A stretch of 64,000 bases of DNA, from positions 160,001 through 224,000 of IMG/VR virus record IMGVR_UViG_3300032254_000001; one strand, given 5' to 3'. This DNA comes from a virus (lineage: Duplodnaviria > Caudoviricetes). Positions 6,918 through 34,771 of the stretch are shown piece by piece; the first letter of the stretch is position 1; the number at the start of each line of letters is the position of its first letter. Below the pieces are notes generated by a model. That model was not told the origin of the DNA and searched no databases. It saw nothing but the letters and a program-made list of their open reading frames with translations. The position numbers and the translations under genes are program-made.

Positions 6918-7688
6918 ATGACAATAAATTTTGATTTAATAAGCGATTTGTATCTCGAAACACTAGATAACTTTTCATGGGAAAATAAGGCAACAAGTCT
7001 TTTTTGCATTGTAGCTGGAAACATCTCCAACGACCACGATGTATTATTTGACTTCCTAGAAGAGCTGTCAAAGTATTACGAAGCTGTATTCTTTATAGAC
7101 GGTGACTTAGAGCACGATAAGTTTGAAGGTGACTTTGATAGAAGTTACGCATCGTTACGAGATAACATAGGCGACATGGAAACAGTATTCTTCTTACACG
7201 AAAATATTATTATACTTCCTGGCGTAACGTTATTAGCTACTAATGGCTGGACAACATTTGATTTTACAAGTCAGCACACAATAGACGAAACACTAGACTT
7301 CCTCGAGGAGCACGAAGGTGTACCGATTGAAGTTTCAAACCAGATTTTTAAACTCGCAATAACAGATCAACATTATATGTACAATAGCATTGAGTCCGCA
7401 CAGGATATGGATGACGTTGAGGATATAATTGTTATAACCAACTCGGTACCTAATTCAGAGTTTGTAGTACACGACAACGATTATGATGGTACGCTACTAG
7501 GTGATACCTCAGGTAATGGTGGCATCCTACATTGTTTAGAAAATGACTACAAGAAGAAAGTAAAAACTTGGATCTTCGGGAAGTACACGGGTGACATTGA
7601 TTACGATATCGAAGGAGTTCGATATGTGAATAACCCGGGCCTACAAAAAGACCCGAGCATTTATTATCCAAAAATAATTAAAACTTAA
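6918..7688 (+). CDS. calcineurin-like metallophosphoesterase-fold protein with degenerate active site
   Basis: Motif positions SDLY / AGNI / DGDLEH / TNS / FGKYT correspond to DxH / GD / GNH / H / GHxH. Confidence 0.75.
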   Translation: MTINFDLISDLYLETLDNFSWENKATSLFCIVAGNISNDHDVLFDFLEELSKYYEAVFFIDGDLEHDKFEGDFDRSYASLRDNIGDMETVFFLHENIIILPGVTLLATNGWTTFDFTSQHTIDETLDFLEEHEGVPIEVSNQIFKLAITDQHYMYNSIESAQDMDDVEDIIVITNSVPNSEFVVHDNDYDGTLLGDTSGNGGILHCLENDYKKKVKTWIFGKYTGDIDYDIEGVRYVNNPGLQKDPSIYYPKIIKT

Positions 7689-7999
7689 TCGGTTTCTTGT
7701 TCGATTCGGATCTGTAACGGATAGCCCTGCTTACGTGCATCTACTGTTACTTCAATGCCTTTCTGCTCTGCTACCTCAAACGGTAATACCGCTGCAACTG
7801 CTGAACCAGCAGTATGTACGTCATTTGCTATTCGTTCAGCTGTGTTATTCACATAGCTAAAGTGCTCTACCAAGCTTTCTATAACAAACTGCATACTAGT
7901 CTTATTATCGTTTACATAAACAACCTTAAACATTGGTGGCTCTTTAAGATCTAATCGTGTTTTAATTGCAACTTCAGTTGACATTTTATTATCCTTCAT
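7685..7999 (-). CDS. clpS: ATP-dependent Clp protease adaptor ClpS (start 7999 or 7984)
   Basis: KEPPMFKVVYVNDNKT...DVHTAG...EVAEQK...GYPL signature. Confidence 0.92.
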   Translation of the reverse strand: MKDNKMSTEVAIKTRLDLKEPPMFKVVYVNDNKTSMQFVIESLVEHFSYVNNTAERIANDVHTAGSAVAAVLPFEVAEQKGIEVTVDARKQGYPLQIRIEQETD

Positions 8000-8023
8000 A
8001 TAAGTATTTAGTTATTGTATACA

Positions 8024-8051
8024 TTGTACACGGTTATTAGGCCGTGTACAA
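8024..8051 (-). terminator. 10-bp perfect stem-loop between hsp20 and clpS (terminator or processing site)
   Basis: ttgtacacgg / ccgtgtacaa inverted repeat; weak U-tract. Confidence 0.5.
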
Positions 8052-8065
8052 CAATATCGGTTAGG

Positions 8066-8512
8066 TTACTTTATTTCGATTTCTTTCGGTTTCATAGACT
8101 CCGGAACTAATCGTTCAAGTGTAACTGATAAAATGCCGTCAGTTATTTCAGCTTCTTTTACTTCAACATAATCTGCTAGTGCAAATGAGCGTCGAAATGT
8201 TCTAGCACTAATGCCTTGGTGTAGGTACGTAATTTCTTCTTCTTCGGTACCTTCAGAAAGACCACGTAGTCCTGTGATTTCCAGTTGATTGTTAGCAGTA
8301 GTAATCGCTATATCTGATTTTCTAAAACCAGCTACTGCTAGTTCAATTATGTAGTTATCGTCATCAACTTCAATAATGTTGTATGGTGGATAATTACCTG
8401 TGTTTGTATTGTCAATACGGTTTATCATTGCATTCATGTATCGTTCAACGCCGATTGCGTTGCGTAGGAATGGATCAAGATTGATAGAGGTGAGGTGTTT
8501 GCTTTTAGTCAT
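8066..8512 (-). CDS. small heat-shock protein Hsp20/IbpA-like (start at MTKSK, 8512)
   Basis: NYPPYNI, IELAVAGF, YLHQGISARTFRRSFALAD, GILSVTL; AAGGAG SD before 8512. Confidence 0.93.
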   Translation of the reverse strand: MTKSKHLTSINLDPFLRNAIGVERYMNAMINRIDNTNTGNYPPYNIIEVDDDNYIIELAVAGFRKSDIAITTANNQLEITGLRGLSEGTEEEEITYLHQGISARTFRRSFALADYVEVKEAEITDGILSVTLERLVPESMKPKEIEIK

Positions 8513-8584
8513 AATAGTCTCCTTAATATTAAGCAAGATTTAAATGTAAGACCCGCCTTATGCAGCATCTTACTTGTTTATTTA
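8513..8584 (-). promoter_or_regulatory. late promoter (8579-8584) plus two-hairpin 5'UTR with ROSE-type RNA thermometer over the hsp20 SD
   Basis: Minus strand TAAATA, hairpin GUAAGA..UCUUAC (8546-8573), then UCUUGCUUA-AUAU-UAAGGAGA (8518-8538) with UUGCU pairing AGGA and a bulged G. Confidence 0.75.
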
Positions 8585-8602
8585 TCTATATAATATGACA
8601 CT

Positions 8603-8625
8603 TAACGACTTTTCACAAGTCGTTA
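8603..8625 (-). terminator. 9-bp stem-loop just downstream of rpsU
   Basis: taacgactt / aagtcgtta inverted repeat; no clear U-tract. Confidence 0.45.
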
Positions 8626-8632
8626 GGCAAAA

Positions 8633-8845
8633 TTAGCGTCTACGTTGTGGAACTAATTCCTCAGTACGAAGCTTTTTGCGATAACGTGCTTTTGCTGCGG
8701 CTGCTTTACGCTGTCGCTTTGTTGATGGTTTCTCGAAAGTTTGACGACCACGAATTTCCTCAAGGATTCGTTCGTTAGAAACTTTCTTTTTAAATTTTCT
8801 AAGGGCTTTCTCAAACTGTCCCTCGTATACTCTTACTGATGGCAT
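8633..8845 (-). CDS. rpsU: phage-encoded ribosomal protein bS21
   Basis: FEKALRKFKKKV...ILEEIRGRQTFEKPSTKR; 70 aa, basic. Confidence 0.92.
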   Translation of the reverse strand: MPSVRVYEGQFEKALRKFKKKVSNERILEEIRGRQTFEKPSTKRQRKAAAAKARYRKKLRTEELVPQRRR

Positions 8846-10005
8846 TACTTTTTCTTTACCTCCGTTGGGTGATTAATTAGCGATTTAGTGATCCGCACCT
8901 TATTTATGTCATTTCTTGTATACTTGTTAATATTGAACATGTGTGGTAACAATGCTGTTTCCATTATTGAGCGTAAACTACGCGCTCCTGTCTTTTTCCC
9001 TATTGCAATGTTAACAACCTGTTTTAATGCTTCTTTATCGAATGTTAAACGTACATCATTATATTTAAATAGATGCTTGTACTGTGATACCAAGTTATTT
9101 TCTACATCCATTAATACATTTAACATATCATCTTGTGTTAGTTCTTGCACTTCTGCAACTATTGGAAATCTACTAACAAATTCTGGTATTAACCCAAACT
9201 CAATAAGGTCTGTTGGTTCAGCATCTTTAATGTATCTGTTATCGACGTCAGCTGTATAACCAATCTGCGATGGTTGTTGCTTACGTTTCTTAATCTTATC
9301 AAGTCCTACGAATGCGCCACTAGCAATAAACAAGATATTATTTGTGTTAATTTCTATTGTGTTTTCTTCGCGTCTACCAAGATCAATTGTAAAGGTTGAA
9401 CCTTCAACTAATTTCAATAGTGCTTGCTGTACGCCTTCTCCGCCTGGTTCCTTGCCGTTAGTAGATGAACCAGACTTTGCAATTTTATCAATCTCGTCTA
9501 AGAAGATAATGCCACGTTCGGCTTTATCAACATCGCCACCTGCTGCACTTAATAGCTTAACTAGTATCGAATCAACGTCTTCGCCAACATAACCAGACTC
9601 AGTTAATGTAGTTGCATCTGCGATTACAAACGGTACTTCTAAGTACCCTGCTATTGTCTTTGCAAGTAACGTCTTGCCCGAACCTGTCGGTCCTAGTAAC
9701 ATTACATTACTTTTATCTAGTGTTGCCTTATCTGTGTTAAGTCGTTTAACATGGTTAGCAACTGCTACACTTAAAATAGTTTTTGCGGAATCTTGACTTG
9801 TTACGTAGAGGTCTAAGTAATCCTTTAATTCCATTGGGTTGATGTCGTCTAGCTTAGGCATTTCTCGTTTTTCATCGCCTGCTTCACTTGCTAGTATTCC
9901 TAAACATACATCAATACATGCATCGCATATGCCTACTTTTTCACCTAGTACTAACTTATTAACTTGGTGCTGTGTTCTATTACAAAAATTACATTGTTCT
10001 GTCAT
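8845..10005 (-). CDS. clpX: ClpX-like AAA+ unfoldase
   Basis: N-terminal C4 zinc finger, GPTGSGKT, GYVGEDV, IFLDEIDK, GEGVQQALLK, IGY loop, GARSLR. Confidence 0.93.
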   Translation of the reverse strand: MTEQCNFCNRTQHQVNKLVLGEKVGICDACIDVCLGILASEAGDEKREMPKLDDINPMELKDYLDLYVTSQDSAKTILSVAVANHVKRLNTDKATLDKSNVMLLGPTGSGKTLLAKTIAGYLEVPFVIADATTLTESGYVGEDVDSILVKLLSAAGGDVDKAERGIIFLDEIDKIAKSGSSTNGKEPGGEGVQQALLKLVEGSTFTIDLGRREENTIEINTNNILFIASGAFVGLDKIKKRKQQPSQIGYTADVDNRYIKDAEPTDLIEFGLIPEFVSRFPIVAEVQELTQDDMLNVLMDVENNLVSQYKHLFKYNDVRLTFDKEALKQVVNIAIGKKTGARSLRSIMETALLPHMFNINKYTRNDINKVRITKSLINHPTEVKKK

Positions 10006-32395: not shown

Positions 32396-33771
32396 TACTT
32401 CTTAATCTTATTAAGCAACGAATTCAATTTACTTGAATCAACTGTGCCTGATACCTTACCTTCATCTGGTGCATTTGAAATTGTAGATTTTGCTTTAATG
32501 TTATTCAAGATGTTCGAAGGCGATGCACTATGCCCGTGCCCTGGTTGACCGTTGTCTACAATACGCAATGTATCTACATCAAACTCTAAATCAATCTTTT
32601 GTCCTACACCTGCTGAACTACGTGTTTTCATTAACTGCAATTGGTACTTGCCACGTTCGCGCATTGCACGTGATGTGAATATACCAAACACGTTATCAGC
32701 TGTATTAATTTTAGAAATACCGCCGGAGATCATGCTGTGGTCAAACTCTACTTCTTCTACTGCTGAACGGTTAAGCTGTGATGCTGTTACCATTACAATA
32801 TCAAGTTCCTTAGCTAAGTTACGTATTTCTTCTGATACGTACTTGTCCTTAACGAACAAGTCGTTTGGACTAACCTTTGCAGTTACAGGCATTAGCAGAT
32901 CCAAGTAATCAATGCACATGAAGTCTATCTTCTTACCTGTCTTAACTTGTAATTCCTTTACGAATGCACGAACATCGTTGATGTTGCTTTGAGCTGGGAA
33001 GTATTTAATCTGTAGATCGCCTGCTGACTTAGCCTTCATCTTAACTTTCATTTCAACATCGTCTATATTTTTAAATATAGCTTTGCTCGGCGTGCCTGTC
33101 ATCATACTGTCAAGTCGCATTGCACACAAGTCTTCACTAAGCTCAAGTGTTACAAAGATTCCGTTCTTGCCCATCTCTGTCCAGTTAACCGCTAAGTTCT
33201 GCATGAATAATGATTTACCAGAACCAGAACCACCTGCAAAGATTTGCAGCTCGCCCCTGTTAAAGCCGCCGTACAGCTTGGCATCCATTGTTGCCCAACC
33301 AGTAGACGTTTGTCCGTTGTTATCCTTAATAGCTTTTAAACGTGCTTTTGGATCTTCAAAGTAATCAGTACCCATATCTTTTAACAGGCTGATTTCTACT
33401 GCCGCTTTTATCAATGGCAATACTGGTTCAAACTCGCCCTTGTCAAGTAAGTCTGCCGATTGCAGCACTGCTCGTTCAAGTTCTTGTCGTTTAGTAAAGC
33501 TTTCAAACTCTTCAAAGAACCACTCGTAATGCCCTTCATTAATTTCTTCCGGCAGTCCGTCAAGTGTAATTTCCGTCATTGCTTTTAGCTGTGCTAGCTC
33601 AGGCAAAGTGCCGTACTTAGTAGAATGCTTTTCTATAAAGTCAGCTGCGGGCTTTAGCTCGGGGTGGAAGTTTTCAACATTAAAAATATTTTGTATACGC
33701 ACGAATGTCGCTGCGTCTGCTATCATCATTTCTAAGAAGAGCTTCTGGATTTGATACGTGTATTCAATCAT
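32395..33771 (-). CDS. replicative DnaB-like helicase (gp41-like)
   Basis: AGGSGSGKS, FVTLELS, CIDYLDL, TASQLNR, KTRSS. Confidence 0.93.
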   Translation of the reverse strand: MIEYTYQIQKLFLEMMIADAATFVRIQNIFNVENFHPELKPAADFIEKHSTKYGTLPELAQLKAMTEITLDGLPEEINEGHYEWFFEEFESFTKRQELERAVLQSADLLDKGEFEPVLPLIKAAVEISLLKDMGTDYFEDPKARLKAIKDNNGQTSTGWATMDAKLYGGFNRGELQIFAGGSGSGKSLFMQNLAVNWTEMGKNGIFVTLELSEDLCAMRLDSMMTGTPSKAIFKNIDDVEMKVKMKAKSAGDLQIKYFPAQSNINDVRAFVKELQVKTGKKIDFMCIDYLDLLMPVTAKVSPNDLFVKDKYVSEEIRNLAKELDIVMVTASQLNRSAVEEVEFDHSMISGGISKINTADNVFGIFTSRAMRERGKYQLQLMKTRSSAGVGQKIDLEFDVDTLRIVDNGQPGHGHSASPSNILNNIKAKSTISNAPDEGKVSGTVDSSKLNSLLNKIKK

Positions 33772-34771
33772 TTAATTTTATCTTTCTCCGTGAAGCGAGA
33801 TTATTAATCATAATCCTCGCCTTTACTTTACTTGATGTCTTTGCAGCAACTATACTTAACAATACACCAAGTCTGCCGTATTCTTTTGTGGCGTCGTTTA
33901 CATCTTTAATGTGAGCTGGCCAGTTTGGTATGCTTATACTAAACCCTGCCTCTAACGCTTGCTCAGCTAATACCATGCCTGCTTTATCCTGGTCAGGTAC
34001 TACAATAACTTCCTTGCCTTGGCGTCGAAGTATTGCTTGCTGCTGTTCACTTAATTCATTATGCAGTACTGCAACACCCCTGATACTAACAGCACAGAAG
34101 GTTCCTTCTACTACTATTATAAAATCCCAATCGGGTTTTTGCATCTCTAAGCCAAACACATAACCAGGTTGTTGATGCTCATTAACGTACTTCGGAAACT
34201 TACCATCTAAGTAACGTGACGTCCAACCTACAATGTCTTCACCGTACATATACGGTATTAGTATACGCTGCTTATTACGTCCTTTGTCCGACGGTGTAAT
34301 CTTAAAAGGATAATCATGATAGTCTAGTCCACGTTCATCCCTTAAGTAATCAATTGCCCATTTATCGCATGTCATAATGTTACGTGCTGTAGATGGTAGC
34401 TTTTGTTTCTTAAAGAATATATTGCGTTGAATAATTTCATCACGTGAATTAGTGCGATCCTTAGCAATATCATATATCTTTTTATTCTTAAGACTATCTA
34501 AATTAATCTTCTGTATAGTATCTGGTGGTACGCCCATCCATTGCAAAAGCTTTTTAGATTTTAAACTAAGTTGCTGTCCGTTTACAAATCGTGTTTTGAA
34601 ACCACAATTAAAACACGAGAAACTCCAGTCCTCGCCATCGAGAATTACGCCACCACGTTTTCTTTTGTCTGGAGTTTCGCCATTGTGGATACACGCCGGA
34701 CAATTAAAGCTGTACCACCCCGCTGGTGATTTTTTTGTTCTCGGAGGGAGGTACTGTAAAATATCAAACAT
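33764..34771 (-). CDS. DNA primase (gp61-like)
   Basis: CPAC...CFNC zinc finger; TOPRIM VVEG...VPDQD...KDVND. Confidence 0.9.
   Translation of the reverse strand: MFDILQYLPPRTKKSPAGWYSFNCPACIHNGETPDKRKRGGVILDGEDWSFSCFNCGFKTRFVNGQQLSLKSKKLLQWMGVPPDTIQKINLDSLKNKKIYDIAKDRTNSRDEIIQRNIFFKKQKLPSTARNIMTCDKWAIDYLRDERGLDYHDYPFKITPSDKGRNKQRILIPYMYGEDIVGWTSRYLDGKFPKYVNEHQQPGYVFGLEMQKPDWDFIIVVEGTFCAVSIRGVAVLHNELSEQQQAILRRQGKEVIVVPDQDKAGMVLAEQALEAGFSISIPNWPAHIKDVNDATKEYGRLGVLLSIVAAKTSSKVKARIMINNLASRRKIKLND

What the first reader, a model, noticed from the sequence alone, without database searches (positions are those of the whole stretch)
8513..8584. Phage late mRNA carrying a ROSE-type RNA thermometer over the hsp20 ribosome-binding site
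Seen: on the minus strand a TAAATA late box (8579-8584) is followed 5 nt later by hairpin 1 (8546-8573), then by UCUUGCUUA-AUAU-UAAGGAGA (8518-8538) and the AUG at 8512. UUGCU pairs with the SD AGGA (U-A, U.G, bulged G, C-G, U-A). Established: U(U/C)GCU opposite the SD with a bulged G is the ROSE signature that controls proteobacterial small heat-shock genes such as ibpA. Inference: the phage gates its chaperone by temperature after transcription, on a phage late rather than a sigma32 promoter. I do not know of this being described in a phage.
Basis: partly seen in the sequence, partly recalled or inferred. Interest (0 to 1): 0.82.

Follow-up and report, generated by a model that had tools for sequence, protein, structure and literature searches.

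The report
ROSE-type RNA thermometer on phage hsp20
A 344-kb jumbo phage controls its small heat-shock chaperone gene with the same ribosome-site-hiding RNA hairpin that bacteria use as a thermometer, but behind a phage late promoter, and 83 of the 91 phage hsp20 loci I examined carry it.

Summary
On the minus strand lie a GATAAATA box (8586-8579), hairpin 1 (8573-8546), an SD hairpin in which UCUU-G-CUUA pairs with UAAGGAGA around a bulged G8534, and the AUG at 8512 of an Hsp20 gene.

Rfam ROSE_3, the short Pseudomonas ibpA thermometer, matches 8507-8574 over its full length. It scores 35.6 bits, below the cut-off of 43. A covariance model built from 69 other phage hsp20 leaders, with the window left out, hits the site at 52.6 bits (E 9e-10). 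It is the only strong hit in the 344-kb genome.

The same two-hairpin leader precedes 83 of 91 phage hsp20 loci examined. These include cyanophages, pelagiphages, Melnitz and Sinorhizobium phage Phosso. Covariation is strong and both bulged Gs are invariant.

The late-promoter reading holds. ATAAATA boxes precede tail, baseplate and other virion genes, and the phage encodes a gp55-type late sigma factor.

Temperature dependence is not tested. The Hsp20 keeps the IbpA residues needed for self-repression through the leader, so feedback control is a live rival.

I found no paper describing this. The scan has flagged the motif before, in at least 63 other genomes. I class it as a new member of the ROSE family.

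The parts
8579..8586 (-). Late-promoter box GATAAATA (core ATAAATA 8585-8579), a T4 gp55-type -10 element.
   Evidence: Sequence. Genome census of ATAAATA before virion genes. gp55-type sigma factor encoded. In 45 of 77 related leaders a TAAATA box lies -1 to 11 nt (43 of the 45 within -1 to 5 nt, mode 4) before hairpin 1.
8573..8573 (-). Predicted transcription start. It is the sixth base after the box and the first paired base of hairpin 1. This is inferred, not measured.
   Evidence: T4 late-promoter geometry (established knowledge) applied. The ROSE_3 match starts at 8574 and the R1 match at 8573, so both begin at or one base before this position.
8546..8573 (-). Hairpin 1: 7-bp lower stem, invariant 5' bulged G8566, 4-bp upper stem, loop AUAAG.
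   Evidence: RNAfold. All 10 modelled pairs show double-sided changes across 84 distinct leaders and 96% of cells are paired. The bulged G is present in 84 of 84.
8539..8545 (-). Single-stranded spacer AUUUAAA between the two hairpins.
8518..8538 (-). SD hairpin, the putative thermosensor. The anti-SD UCUU[G]CUUA pairs with UAAGGAGA. G8534 is bulged and the loop is AUAU.
   Evidence: The bulged G is invariant in 84 of 84. At the outermost modelled pair U-A (35 leaders) alternates with C-G (9), with 39 leaders unpaired there; U.G and C-G alternate next to the bulge. dG37 is -2.2 kcal/mol, like the validated type.
8518..8524 (-). Shine-Dalgarno AAGGAGA. All seven bases are paired in the hairpin.
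8066..8512 (-). hsp20 coding sequence (148 aa, IbpA-like small heat-shock protein), AUG at 8512-8510.
   Evidence: ORF list. Pfam HSP20 E 1.6e-17. 42% identity to Salmonella IbpA, with the R93, R97 and Y34 equivalents kept.
8603..8625 (-). Stem-loop AACGACUU-GUGAAA-AGUCGUU after the rpsU stop, upstream of the box. It has no U-tract and may insulate against, or process, read-through from clpX-rpsU.
   Evidence: Sequence. The terminator scan does not call it.

Best explanation
This is a two-hairpin ROSE-family translational control element in the 5' leader of the phage's own hsp20 mRNA.

Transcription starts at a gp55-type late promoter (GATAAATA), probably at G8573. The roughly 61-nt leader folds into a stable 5' hairpin and a marginally stable 3' hairpin. 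In the 3' hairpin the conserved U(U/C)GCU anti-SD pairs with AAGGAGA around a bulged G, which hides the ribosome-binding site.

Warming melts the 3' hairpin and lets 30S subunits bind. Hsp20 synthesis late in infection therefore rises with temperature, as shown experimentally for the Pseudomonas ibpA leaders that Rfam ROSE_3 models.

Shown here: the sequence, the fold, family similarity, covariation, the promoter type and uniqueness in the genome. Inferred: the start site, melting, and the effect on translation.

The gene and its leader were most likely taken together from a proteobacterial ibpA. The sigma32 promoter was then replaced by whatever promoter each phage lineage uses.
For: ROSE_3 aligns over all 69 model positions at 35.6 bits, E 1e-5. 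It is the only meaningful hit in the genome.

Over-threshold ROSE_3 hits in sampled Pseudomonadota are sigma32-driven ibpA leaders of the Pseudomonas type. That type is an experimentally validated two-hairpin thermometer (PMC3669281).

Model R1, built without the window, hits it at 52.6 bits, E 9e-10. It also hits 83 of 91 phage hsp20 loci, and the Pseudomonas-type leaders at 38-41 bits.

Covariation: 93.6% of cells are paired against 73.3% in shuffles (0 of 500 reach it), and 43-61% when partners are slid. 13 of 17 pairs show double-sided changes. Both bulged Gs are invariant.

The proteins behind these leaders are only 36-56% identical to the window's Hsp20, and the promoters differ, yet the leader is kept.

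The SD hairpin has dG37 of -2.2 kcal/mol. Pseudomonas-type leaders have -2.7 and -3.3, and Salmonella ibpA has -4.1. Folding the leader alone gives the ROSE structure, with SD pairing falling from 0.98 at 5 C to 0.74 at 50 C.

Late promoter.
Against: There is no experimental or transcriptome evidence, because no RNA run holds this DNA.

The ROSE_3 score is below Rfam's gathering threshold (35.6 against 43).

Folding energy is not better than shuffled sequence.

When 20 nt of coding sequence are included, an alternative UUGCUU/AAGCAA pairing competes and the predicted SD pairing becomes flat with temperature.

The hairpin lacks the upper G-C clamp. Loss of that clamp abolished repression in Pseudomonas putida (PMC3669281).

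The same leader occurs in pelagiphages and cyanophages. From my own knowledge these live in cool, thermally stable seawater, where a heat switch has no obvious use.

Hairpin 1 keeps an invariant bulged G and a near-invariant upper stem. A pure melting model does not explain that.
Confidence: 0.65

Rival explanations
1. The leader is mainly an operator for Hsp20 itself, giving IbpA-style negative feedback. Free Hsp20 oligomers bind the structured leader and block translation. When misfolded or aggregating proteins accumulate late in infection, for example overproduced virion proteins, they titrate Hsp20 away and translation resumes. Temperature would be only a secondary input. This can coexist with thermosensing, as it does in E. 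coli.
For: E. coli, Cedecea and Vibrio IbpA repress their own translation by binding the ibpA 5'UTR. This needs R93, a cationic residue at 97/98 and an aromatic residue at Y34. IbpB has no R93 and lacks the activity (PMC10474464).

In alignment A5 the R93 equivalent is present in the window's Hsp20 and in all seven other phage Hsp20s aligned, while IbpB has Q there. The window protein has R at the R97 position and Y in NYPPYN (also invariant R104).

This reading would explain two things. One is the conservation of the leader in phages of thermally stable seawater. The other is the sequence-invariant bulged-G motif in hairpin 1, which does not melt in the validated thermometers.
Against: Binding has never been tested for any phage Hsp20. 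R93 and its neighbours may be kept for chaperone or oligomer reasons. The K98 position is S in the window protein. The RNA determinants of IbpA binding are not defined, so no RNA-side test was possible.
Confidence: 0.2
2. The leader is a constitutive attenuator or stabiliser. The SD hairpin merely sets a low, fixed translation rate, and hairpin 1 protects the 5' end from RNases. No physiological signal is read.
For: The hairpin is weak: dG37 is -2.2 kcal/mol and z is -0.36 against shuffles. 5' hairpins commonly stabilise mRNAs (established knowledge). Across the family the nominal hairpin Tm ranges from below 0 to 67 C, so no common set point is evident.
Against: A simple attenuator would not need the invariant bulged G and the U(U/C)GCU sequence in 84 of 84 distinct leaders. 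Nor would it be expected to share a specific architecture with validated thermometers.
Confidence: 0.1
3. The resemblance is a chance product of an AT-rich leader, or a decaying remnant carried along when the gene was acquired. It has no present function.
For: The match is below the Rfam threshold, and folding energy is not significant.
Against: The site is unique in the 344-kb genome. E is 9e-10 with a model built from other phages. Covariation and invariant positions persist across proteins diverged to 36-56% identity with the window's Hsp20 while the promoters were exchanged.
Confidence: 0.02

Closest known systems
Short ROSE-like RNA thermometers of Pseudomonas ibpA (Rfam ROSE_3, RF02523; Krajewski et al. 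2013, PMC3669281)
   Same: Both have two hairpins in a leader of about 60 nt before an IbpA-type sHsp gene. Hairpin I has a 5' bulged G, with (A/G)UGCC pairing to GGGUC. Hairpin II has U(U/C)GCU opposite the SD with a bulged G, and the AUG is unpaired. The models match each other both ways.
   Different: The score is below the Rfam cut-off (35.6 against 43). The inner stem of hairpin II is all A-U, with no upper G-C clamp. The promoter is a gp55-type late box, not sigma32. The element lies on a virus genome.
ROSE_2 (RF01832), the enterobacterial ibpA thermometer
   Same: It has the same anti-SD/SD core, UCGCU opposite AGGAG with a bulged G, before an IbpA gene. The window's Hsp20 is 42% identical to Salmonella IbpA.
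   Different: ROSE_2 does not match the window at E up to 10. The enterobacterial leader is longer with a different 5' part. Its SD hairpin is more stable, at dG37 of -4.1 kcal/mol.
RNA thermometers already reported in phages: lambda cIII, SPbeta blyA (fourU) and a sigma70-gene fourU in a gut Caudoviricetes (PMC11182007)
   Same: All are cis-acting leader structures on phage mRNAs that are thought to gate translation by temperature.
   Different: They are unrelated structures, none of the ROSE type, on different genes, and each is confined to one phage or a few. The element here is conserved across many phage lineages.
IbpA self-repression through the ibpA 5'UTR (Miwa and Taguchi; Cheng et al. 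2023, PMC10474464)
   Same: The leader class is the same, and the protein determinants R93, R97 and Y34 are kept in the phage Hsp20.
   Different: It has been shown only for gamma-proteobacterial IbpA. No binding data exist for phage proteins.

Membership tests
ROSE-type RNA thermometer | Conserved U(U/C)GCU anti-SD motif paired with the Shine-Dalgarno sequence | tested here: met
   UUGCU at 8536-8532 pairs with AGGA of AAGGAGA. The motif is present in the 84 distinct leaders aligned.
ROSE-type RNA thermometer | Bulged G in the anti-SD strand opposite the SD | tested here: met
   G8534 is unpaired in the predicted fold. The column is G in 84 of 84 sequences. The solution structure was not tested.
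ROSE-type RNA thermometer | Two to four hairpins, SD in the 3'-proximal one, start codon just outside it | tested here: met
   There are two hairpins, at 8573-8546 and 8538-8518, and the AUG at 8512 is unpaired.
ROSE-type RNA thermometer | Located in the 5' leader of a small heat-shock protein gene | tested here: met
   Pfam HSP20 E 1.6e-17. 42% identity to Salmonella IbpA.
ROSE-type RNA thermometer | Structure supported by covariation among homologous leaders | tested here: met
   93.6% of cells are paired against 73.3% in shuffles (0 of 500 reach it). 13 of 17 pairs show double-sided changes. The alignment was fitted to the model, which favours the structure. The slid-partner control (43-61% paired) argues against an artefact.
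ROSE-type RNA thermometer | Temperature-dependent melting of the SD hairpin and heat-induced translation | not testable with these tools
   Only nearest-neighbour predictions are available. dG37 is -2.2 kcal/mol. SD pairing falls from 0.98 at 5 C to 0.74 at 50 C for the leader alone, but is flat when coding sequence is added.
Rfam ROSE_3 (RF02523) | Score at or above the curated gathering threshold of 43 bits | tested here: not met
   The window scores 35.6 bits over the full model, positions 1-69. None of the phage leaders scanned with Rfam reaches 43; the best is 40.2.
Rfam ROSE_3 (RF02523) | G-C pairs flanking the SD/anti-SD core, with the upper G-C clamp needed for repression in Pseudomonas putida | tested here: not met
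   Above C8533-G8522 the stem is U-A, U-A, A-U. The Pseudomonas-type leaders have G-C there. The requirement is described in PMC3669281.
Bacterial ROSE regulon context | Sigma32-dependent promoter on an alpha- or gamma-proteobacterial chromosome | tested here: not met
   The record is a virus with terminal repeats. No CTTGAAA/CCCCAT-type promoter is present; GATAAATA is there instead. Bacterial relatives L018, L025 to L028 and L030 do have sigma32-type boxes.
T4-type (gp55) late promoter | TATAAATA-like -10 box without a -35 element | tested here: met
   GATAAATA matches 7 of 8 positions. Genome-wide the box is NATAAATA, preceded by C 36, G 23, A 16 and T 13 times. A weak sigma70-like TTGTGA-17-TATTAT upstream is no more than shuffles give.
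T4-type (gp55) late promoter | The same box precedes virion structural genes | tested here: met
   64 of 88 ATAAATA sites lie within -90 to +150 of a same-strand ORF start. Downstream genes include tail tube, baseplate wedge, head-tail adaptor, tail fibres and virion proteins.
T4-type (gp55) late promoter | The phage encodes a gp55-family late sigma factor | tested here: met
   T4 gp55 matches genome positions 285131-285406(-) at E 5.8e-6. The 343-aa ORF hits phrog_12791, 'sigma factor for late transcription', at E 5e-76. A second 131-aa ORF hits phrog_234 at E 1e-16.
T4-type (gp55) late promoter | Transcript starts about 6 nt after the box, late in infection | not testable with these tools
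   No RNA run holds this DNA. The geometry predicts +1 at G8573.
IbpA-type self-repression via own 5'UTR | Arg at the R93 position, a cationic residue at 97/98, an aromatic residue at Y34 | tested here: met
   The window protein reads GISARTFRRSF and NYPPYN. The R93 equivalent is conserved in all phage Hsp20s aligned and is Q in IbpB. R97 is R and position 98 is S. The residues are defined in PMC10474464.
IbpA-type self-repression via own 5'UTR | The protein binds its leader RNA and lowers translation | not testable with these tools
   This needs a filter-binding or PURE-system assay.

The most novel reading that the evidence does not exclude
Phage hsp20 leaders form their own promoter-independent subfamily of ROSE elements, spread across T4-like marine phages, podoviruses and jumbo phages. 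Its main job would be proteostasis feedback rather than heat sensing. Hsp20 would bind its own leader, perhaps through the invariant bulged-G motifs of both hairpins and the conserved R93-type arginine. Misfolded virion proteins late in infection would titrate it off, so the virus makes holdase in proportion to its own assembly stress.
Probability: 0.25. Interest if true: 0.8.

Novelty: new member of a known kind. Interest (0 to 1): 0.62.

Why it matters
ROSE elements are textbook thermometers, thought to be confined to sHsp genes of alpha- and gamma-proteobacteria under sigma32. This work shows the same RNA on a virus, behind a late promoter. It is conserved with covariation across most phage hsp20 genes I could collect. 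Those include cyanophages and pelagiphages, whose hosts, to my knowledge, are not known to use ROSE.

hsp20 is a core cyanomyovirus gene whose role is still only guessed at (PMC3037559). A conserved sensor in its leader says its dose matters and is conditional.

A 2024 paper counted only three RNA thermometers in phages (PMC11182007). This would add a large, testable family that Rfam's threshold currently misses. It also offers cultured systems for experiments: Phosso with Sinorhizobium, Melnitz with OM43, and cyanophages.

Tried and rejected
1. Nucleotide search of 7600-9000 against cultured phages found nothing.

2. RNAalifold on a plain MAFFT alignment of leaders predicted no pairs, because hairpin 1 was misaligned. 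I replaced it with a hand-anchored structure and a covariance-model alignment.

3. The Hsp20 scan of bacterial genomes returned only five loci, and only one was a close relative. No phylogeny of the gene's origin was attempted.

4. I looked for a possible anti-anti-SD, AGCAA downstream of the SD. It occurs in 6 of 74 other leaders plus the window, which I roughly estimate at about twice chance. I dropped it as a conserved feature, though it does distort the window's fold when coding sequence is included.

5. Two other weak hits of the phage model look like chance. One is at window 33766-33854, 17 bits, with no SD. The other is at genome 28480-28494, 12.5 bits.

6. A sigma70-like promoter, TTGTGA-17-TATTAT at 8618-8590, is no better than shuffles give.

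7. The search for sequencing runs found two DNA runs from microbial mats and no RNA. Expression and the 5' end could not be examined, and read laying was not used.

8. Searches for papers on ROSE or RNA thermometers together with phage hsp20 found nothing relevant.

Full report
**Setting.** The window is positions 160001-224000 of a 344,483-bp virus record with direct terminal repeats. GC content is 40%. The DNA is held by microbial mat metagenomes. The baseplate wedge protein is about 33% identical to those of the Rak2, Atu_ph07, SCTP-2 and Phosso group of jumbo myoviruses. Around the finding, the minus strand carries clpX (8845-10005), rpsU for bS21 (8633-8845), hsp20 (8066-8512) and clpS (7685-7999).

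**The observation.**
- The TAAATA box is part of GATAAATAAA (8586-8577).
- Five bases later hairpin 1 begins at G8573: lower stem GUAAGAU/GUCUUAC, bulged G8566, upper stem CUGC/GCGG, loop AUAAG.
- A 7-nt spacer follows.
- The second hairpin pairs UCUU[G]CUUA (8538-8530) with UAAGGAGA (8525-8518) around the loop AUAU, with G8534 bulged. This buries the whole Shine-Dalgarno sequence.
- The AUG is at 8512.

RNAfold gives exactly this two-hairpin fold for the leader. Energy alone is unremarkable: z is -1.48 for the leader and -0.36 for the SD hairpin.

**Family similarity.** Against all of Rfam, the only meaningful match in 8300-8800 is ROSE_3 (RF02523) at 8507-8574(-). It aligns over all 69 model positions, covering both hairpins, the bulged Gs and the AUG. 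It scores 35.6 bits with E 1e-5, below the gathering score of 43. In the whole 344-kb genome it is the only hit of note, at E 1.6e-6.

I checked what ROSE_3 stands for by scanning 151 Pseudomonadota genomes. The two over-threshold hits (77 and 66.6 bits) lie behind sigma32-type promoters. The gene behind the second encodes an IbpA that begins MSNVLSLAPLFRQSVGFDRFNDLFE, which I recognise from memory as the Pseudomonas type. Krajewski et al. showed by reporter assays, toeprinting and structure probing that these short two-hairpin leaders are thermometers. Hairpin II melts while hairpin I stays closed (PMC3669281).

**Comparative evidence.** The nearest IMG/VR relatives of the Hsp20 are 39-53% identical at the protein level. 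All carry a (G/T)ATAAATA box, a first hairpin of different sequence and a U(U/C)GCU/SD hairpin.

So do cultured phages: Methylophilales phage Melnitz, Sinorhizobium phage Phosso, Pelagibacter phages HTVC008M and HTVC103P, and the cyanophages Sf-FR1, P-RSM1 and S-CAM22.

A profile-based scan gave 80 more viral hsp20 loci. I located start codons and parsed the leaders. Of 88 leaders, 84 have the bulged-G SD hairpin, and 79 have a first hairpin with the same 5' bulged-G design.

I then built covariance model R1 from 69 of these leaders, leaving the window out.
- It hits the window at 8507-8573 with 52.6 bits, E 9e-10. This is the only strong hit in the window and in the genome.
- It hits 83 of 91 phage loci at E of 0.01 or better.
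- It hits the Pseudomonas-type ibpA leaders at 38-41 bits, so the similarity runs both ways.

On the resulting alignment, 93.6% of cells form standard pairs against 73.3% in shuffles (0 of 500 reach the observed value). With slid partners the figure is 43-61%. All 10 pairs of helix 1 and 3 of 7 pairs of the SD helix show changes on both sides. The other SD-helix pairs vary on one side only, for example U.G (66) against C-G (18) next to the bulge. Both bulged Gs are G in 84 of 84 distinct sequences. The alignment is fitted to the model and so leans towards the structure. My independent hand parse shows the same compensatory stems.

**Specificity.** In the phage's own genome a loose pattern for the ROSE core, an SD and a start codon finds eight ORF starts. 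Only hsp20 forms the full hairpin.

**Promoter.** ATAAATA occurs 88 times in the genome, and 61% of sites lie in the 8.5% of DNA that is intergenic. 64 sites lie just upstream of a same-strand ORF start. Nine genes I sampled behind such boxes include tail tube, baseplate wedge, head-tail adaptor, tail fibre and virion proteins.

The genome encodes a gp55-type late sigma factor. T4 gp55 matches at E 5.8e-6, and the ORF hits phrog_12791 at E 5e-76. A second, shorter paralogue is also present.

By the T4 rule, which is established knowledge, the start lies six bases after the box. That puts +1 at G8573, the first base of hairpin 1. In 45 of 77 non-redundant related leaders a TAAATA box lies -1 to 11 nt before hairpin 1; 43 of the 45 fall within -1 to 5 nt, with a mode of 4.

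The leader is not tied to late promoters, however. Fifteen of those boxes also have a -35-like element, as in TTGACA-N14-TGTATAAAT. Other leaders follow plain sigma70-type promoters such as TTGAC-N17-TATAAT, or sigma32-like boxes such as CCCTTGAAA. The RNA has been kept while the promoters were exchanged.

**Mechanism.** I consider a ROSE-type temperature gate on translation the best reading. The SD hairpin has dG37 of -2.2 kcal/mol and a nominal Tm of 53 C. That is the same marginal range as the Pseudomonas-type leaders (-2.7 and -3.3; 53-58 C) and weaker than Salmonella ibpA (-4.1; 68 C). For the leader alone, predicted SD pairing falls from 0.98 at 5 C to 0.88 at 37 C and 0.74 at 50 C.

Against this:
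- With 20 nt of coding sequence a competing UUGCUU/AAGCAA pairing flattens the curve.
- The hairpin lacks the upper G-C clamp that mattered in P. putida.
- The same leader occurs in pelagiphages and cyanophages, which I know as phages of cool, stable seawater.
- Hairpin 1 carries an invariant bulged G that melting does not explain.

These points feed the main rival, IbpA-style feedback. Gamma-proteobacterial IbpA binds its own 5'UTR and represses translation. This needs R93, a cationic residue at 97/98 and an aromatic residue at Y34. IbpB lacks R93 and lacks the activity (PMC10474464). The window's Hsp20 and every phage Hsp20 I aligned keep the R93 equivalent, while IbpB has Q there. The window protein has R at the R97 position and Y in NYPPYN. 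The two mechanisms coexist in E. coli and may do so here.

**Novelty.** Open-literature searches found no description of a ROSE-type element on a phage gene. A 2024 paper counts only lambda cIII, SPbeta blyA and one sigma70-gene fourU as phage thermometers (PMC11182007). None of the phage leaders I scanned with Rfam reaches the ROSE_3 threshold, the best being 40.2 bits. That would explain why routine annotation misses them.

The scan itself has noted the motif before. First-reader notes, all unchecked, number 83 in at least 63 other genomes, and some also report it on phage dnaK, groES or pyrD. In this genome only hsp20 has it.

I file it as a new member of the known ROSE kind, forming a phage subfamily in a new genomic and transcriptional context. 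It is not a new mechanism.

**Verdict.** The caveat is that temperature dependence and the 5' end are inferred.

Noticed in passing
Own genome, e.g. window 21012, 24097 and 11949 (genome 181012, 184097, 171949), and about ten more sites outside the window: Twelve genes have ATAAATA followed by exactly 5 nt and then ATG, with no SD. A few more have 4-7 nt. With a T4-type start six bases after the box, these late mRNAs would be leaderless. The phage also encodes ribosomal protein bS21 (8633-8845).
   Followed up: partly
Window 8603-8625 (-) and 8024-8051 (-): Perfect stem-loops without U-tracts sit after rpsU and after hsp20, just upstream of the next gene's TAAATA box. They may be insulators or processing sites. 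The terminator scan does not call them.
   Followed up: no
L053:342-399 and L103:287-344; also L071 and L073: In some phages the ROSE leader precedes a small ORF of 63 or 70 aa that is followed by hsp20, forming a two-gene unit. In L071 a similar small ORF also lies directly before hsp20, but R1 gave no hit there. In L073 hsp20 directly follows what looks like a DnaK C-terminus with no leader of its own.
   Followed up: partly
Genome 28494 (-), outside the window (L125): A second UUGCUUAACUAAGGA core lies 9 nt before the ATG of a 66-aa ORF, but has no hairpin 1. The phage model scores it only 12.5 bits. It is probably chance.
   Followed up: partly
Alignment A4, columns 7-10 and 20-23 (window 8567-8564 and 8555-8552): The upper part of hairpin 1 is nearly invariant in sequence from phages to Pseudomonas: (U/C)-[G]-C-(C/U) pairing with (G/A)-G-G. 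In validated ROSE_3 leaders this hairpin does not melt. The reason for the conservation is unexplained; it may be a protein-binding site.
   Followed up: partly
Genome 284984-286015 (-) and 256009-256404 (-), outside the window: The genome has two gp55-family late sigma factor genes in one phage: a 343-aa form (phrog_12791) and a 131-aa form (phrog_234).
   Followed up: partly
Alignment A4, columns 94-96 (window 8509-8507): The second codon is ACN (Thr) in most phage hsp20 genes: A in 65 and C in 60 of 84. The start region AUGAC is therefore conserved at the nucleotide level beyond the leader.
   Followed up: no
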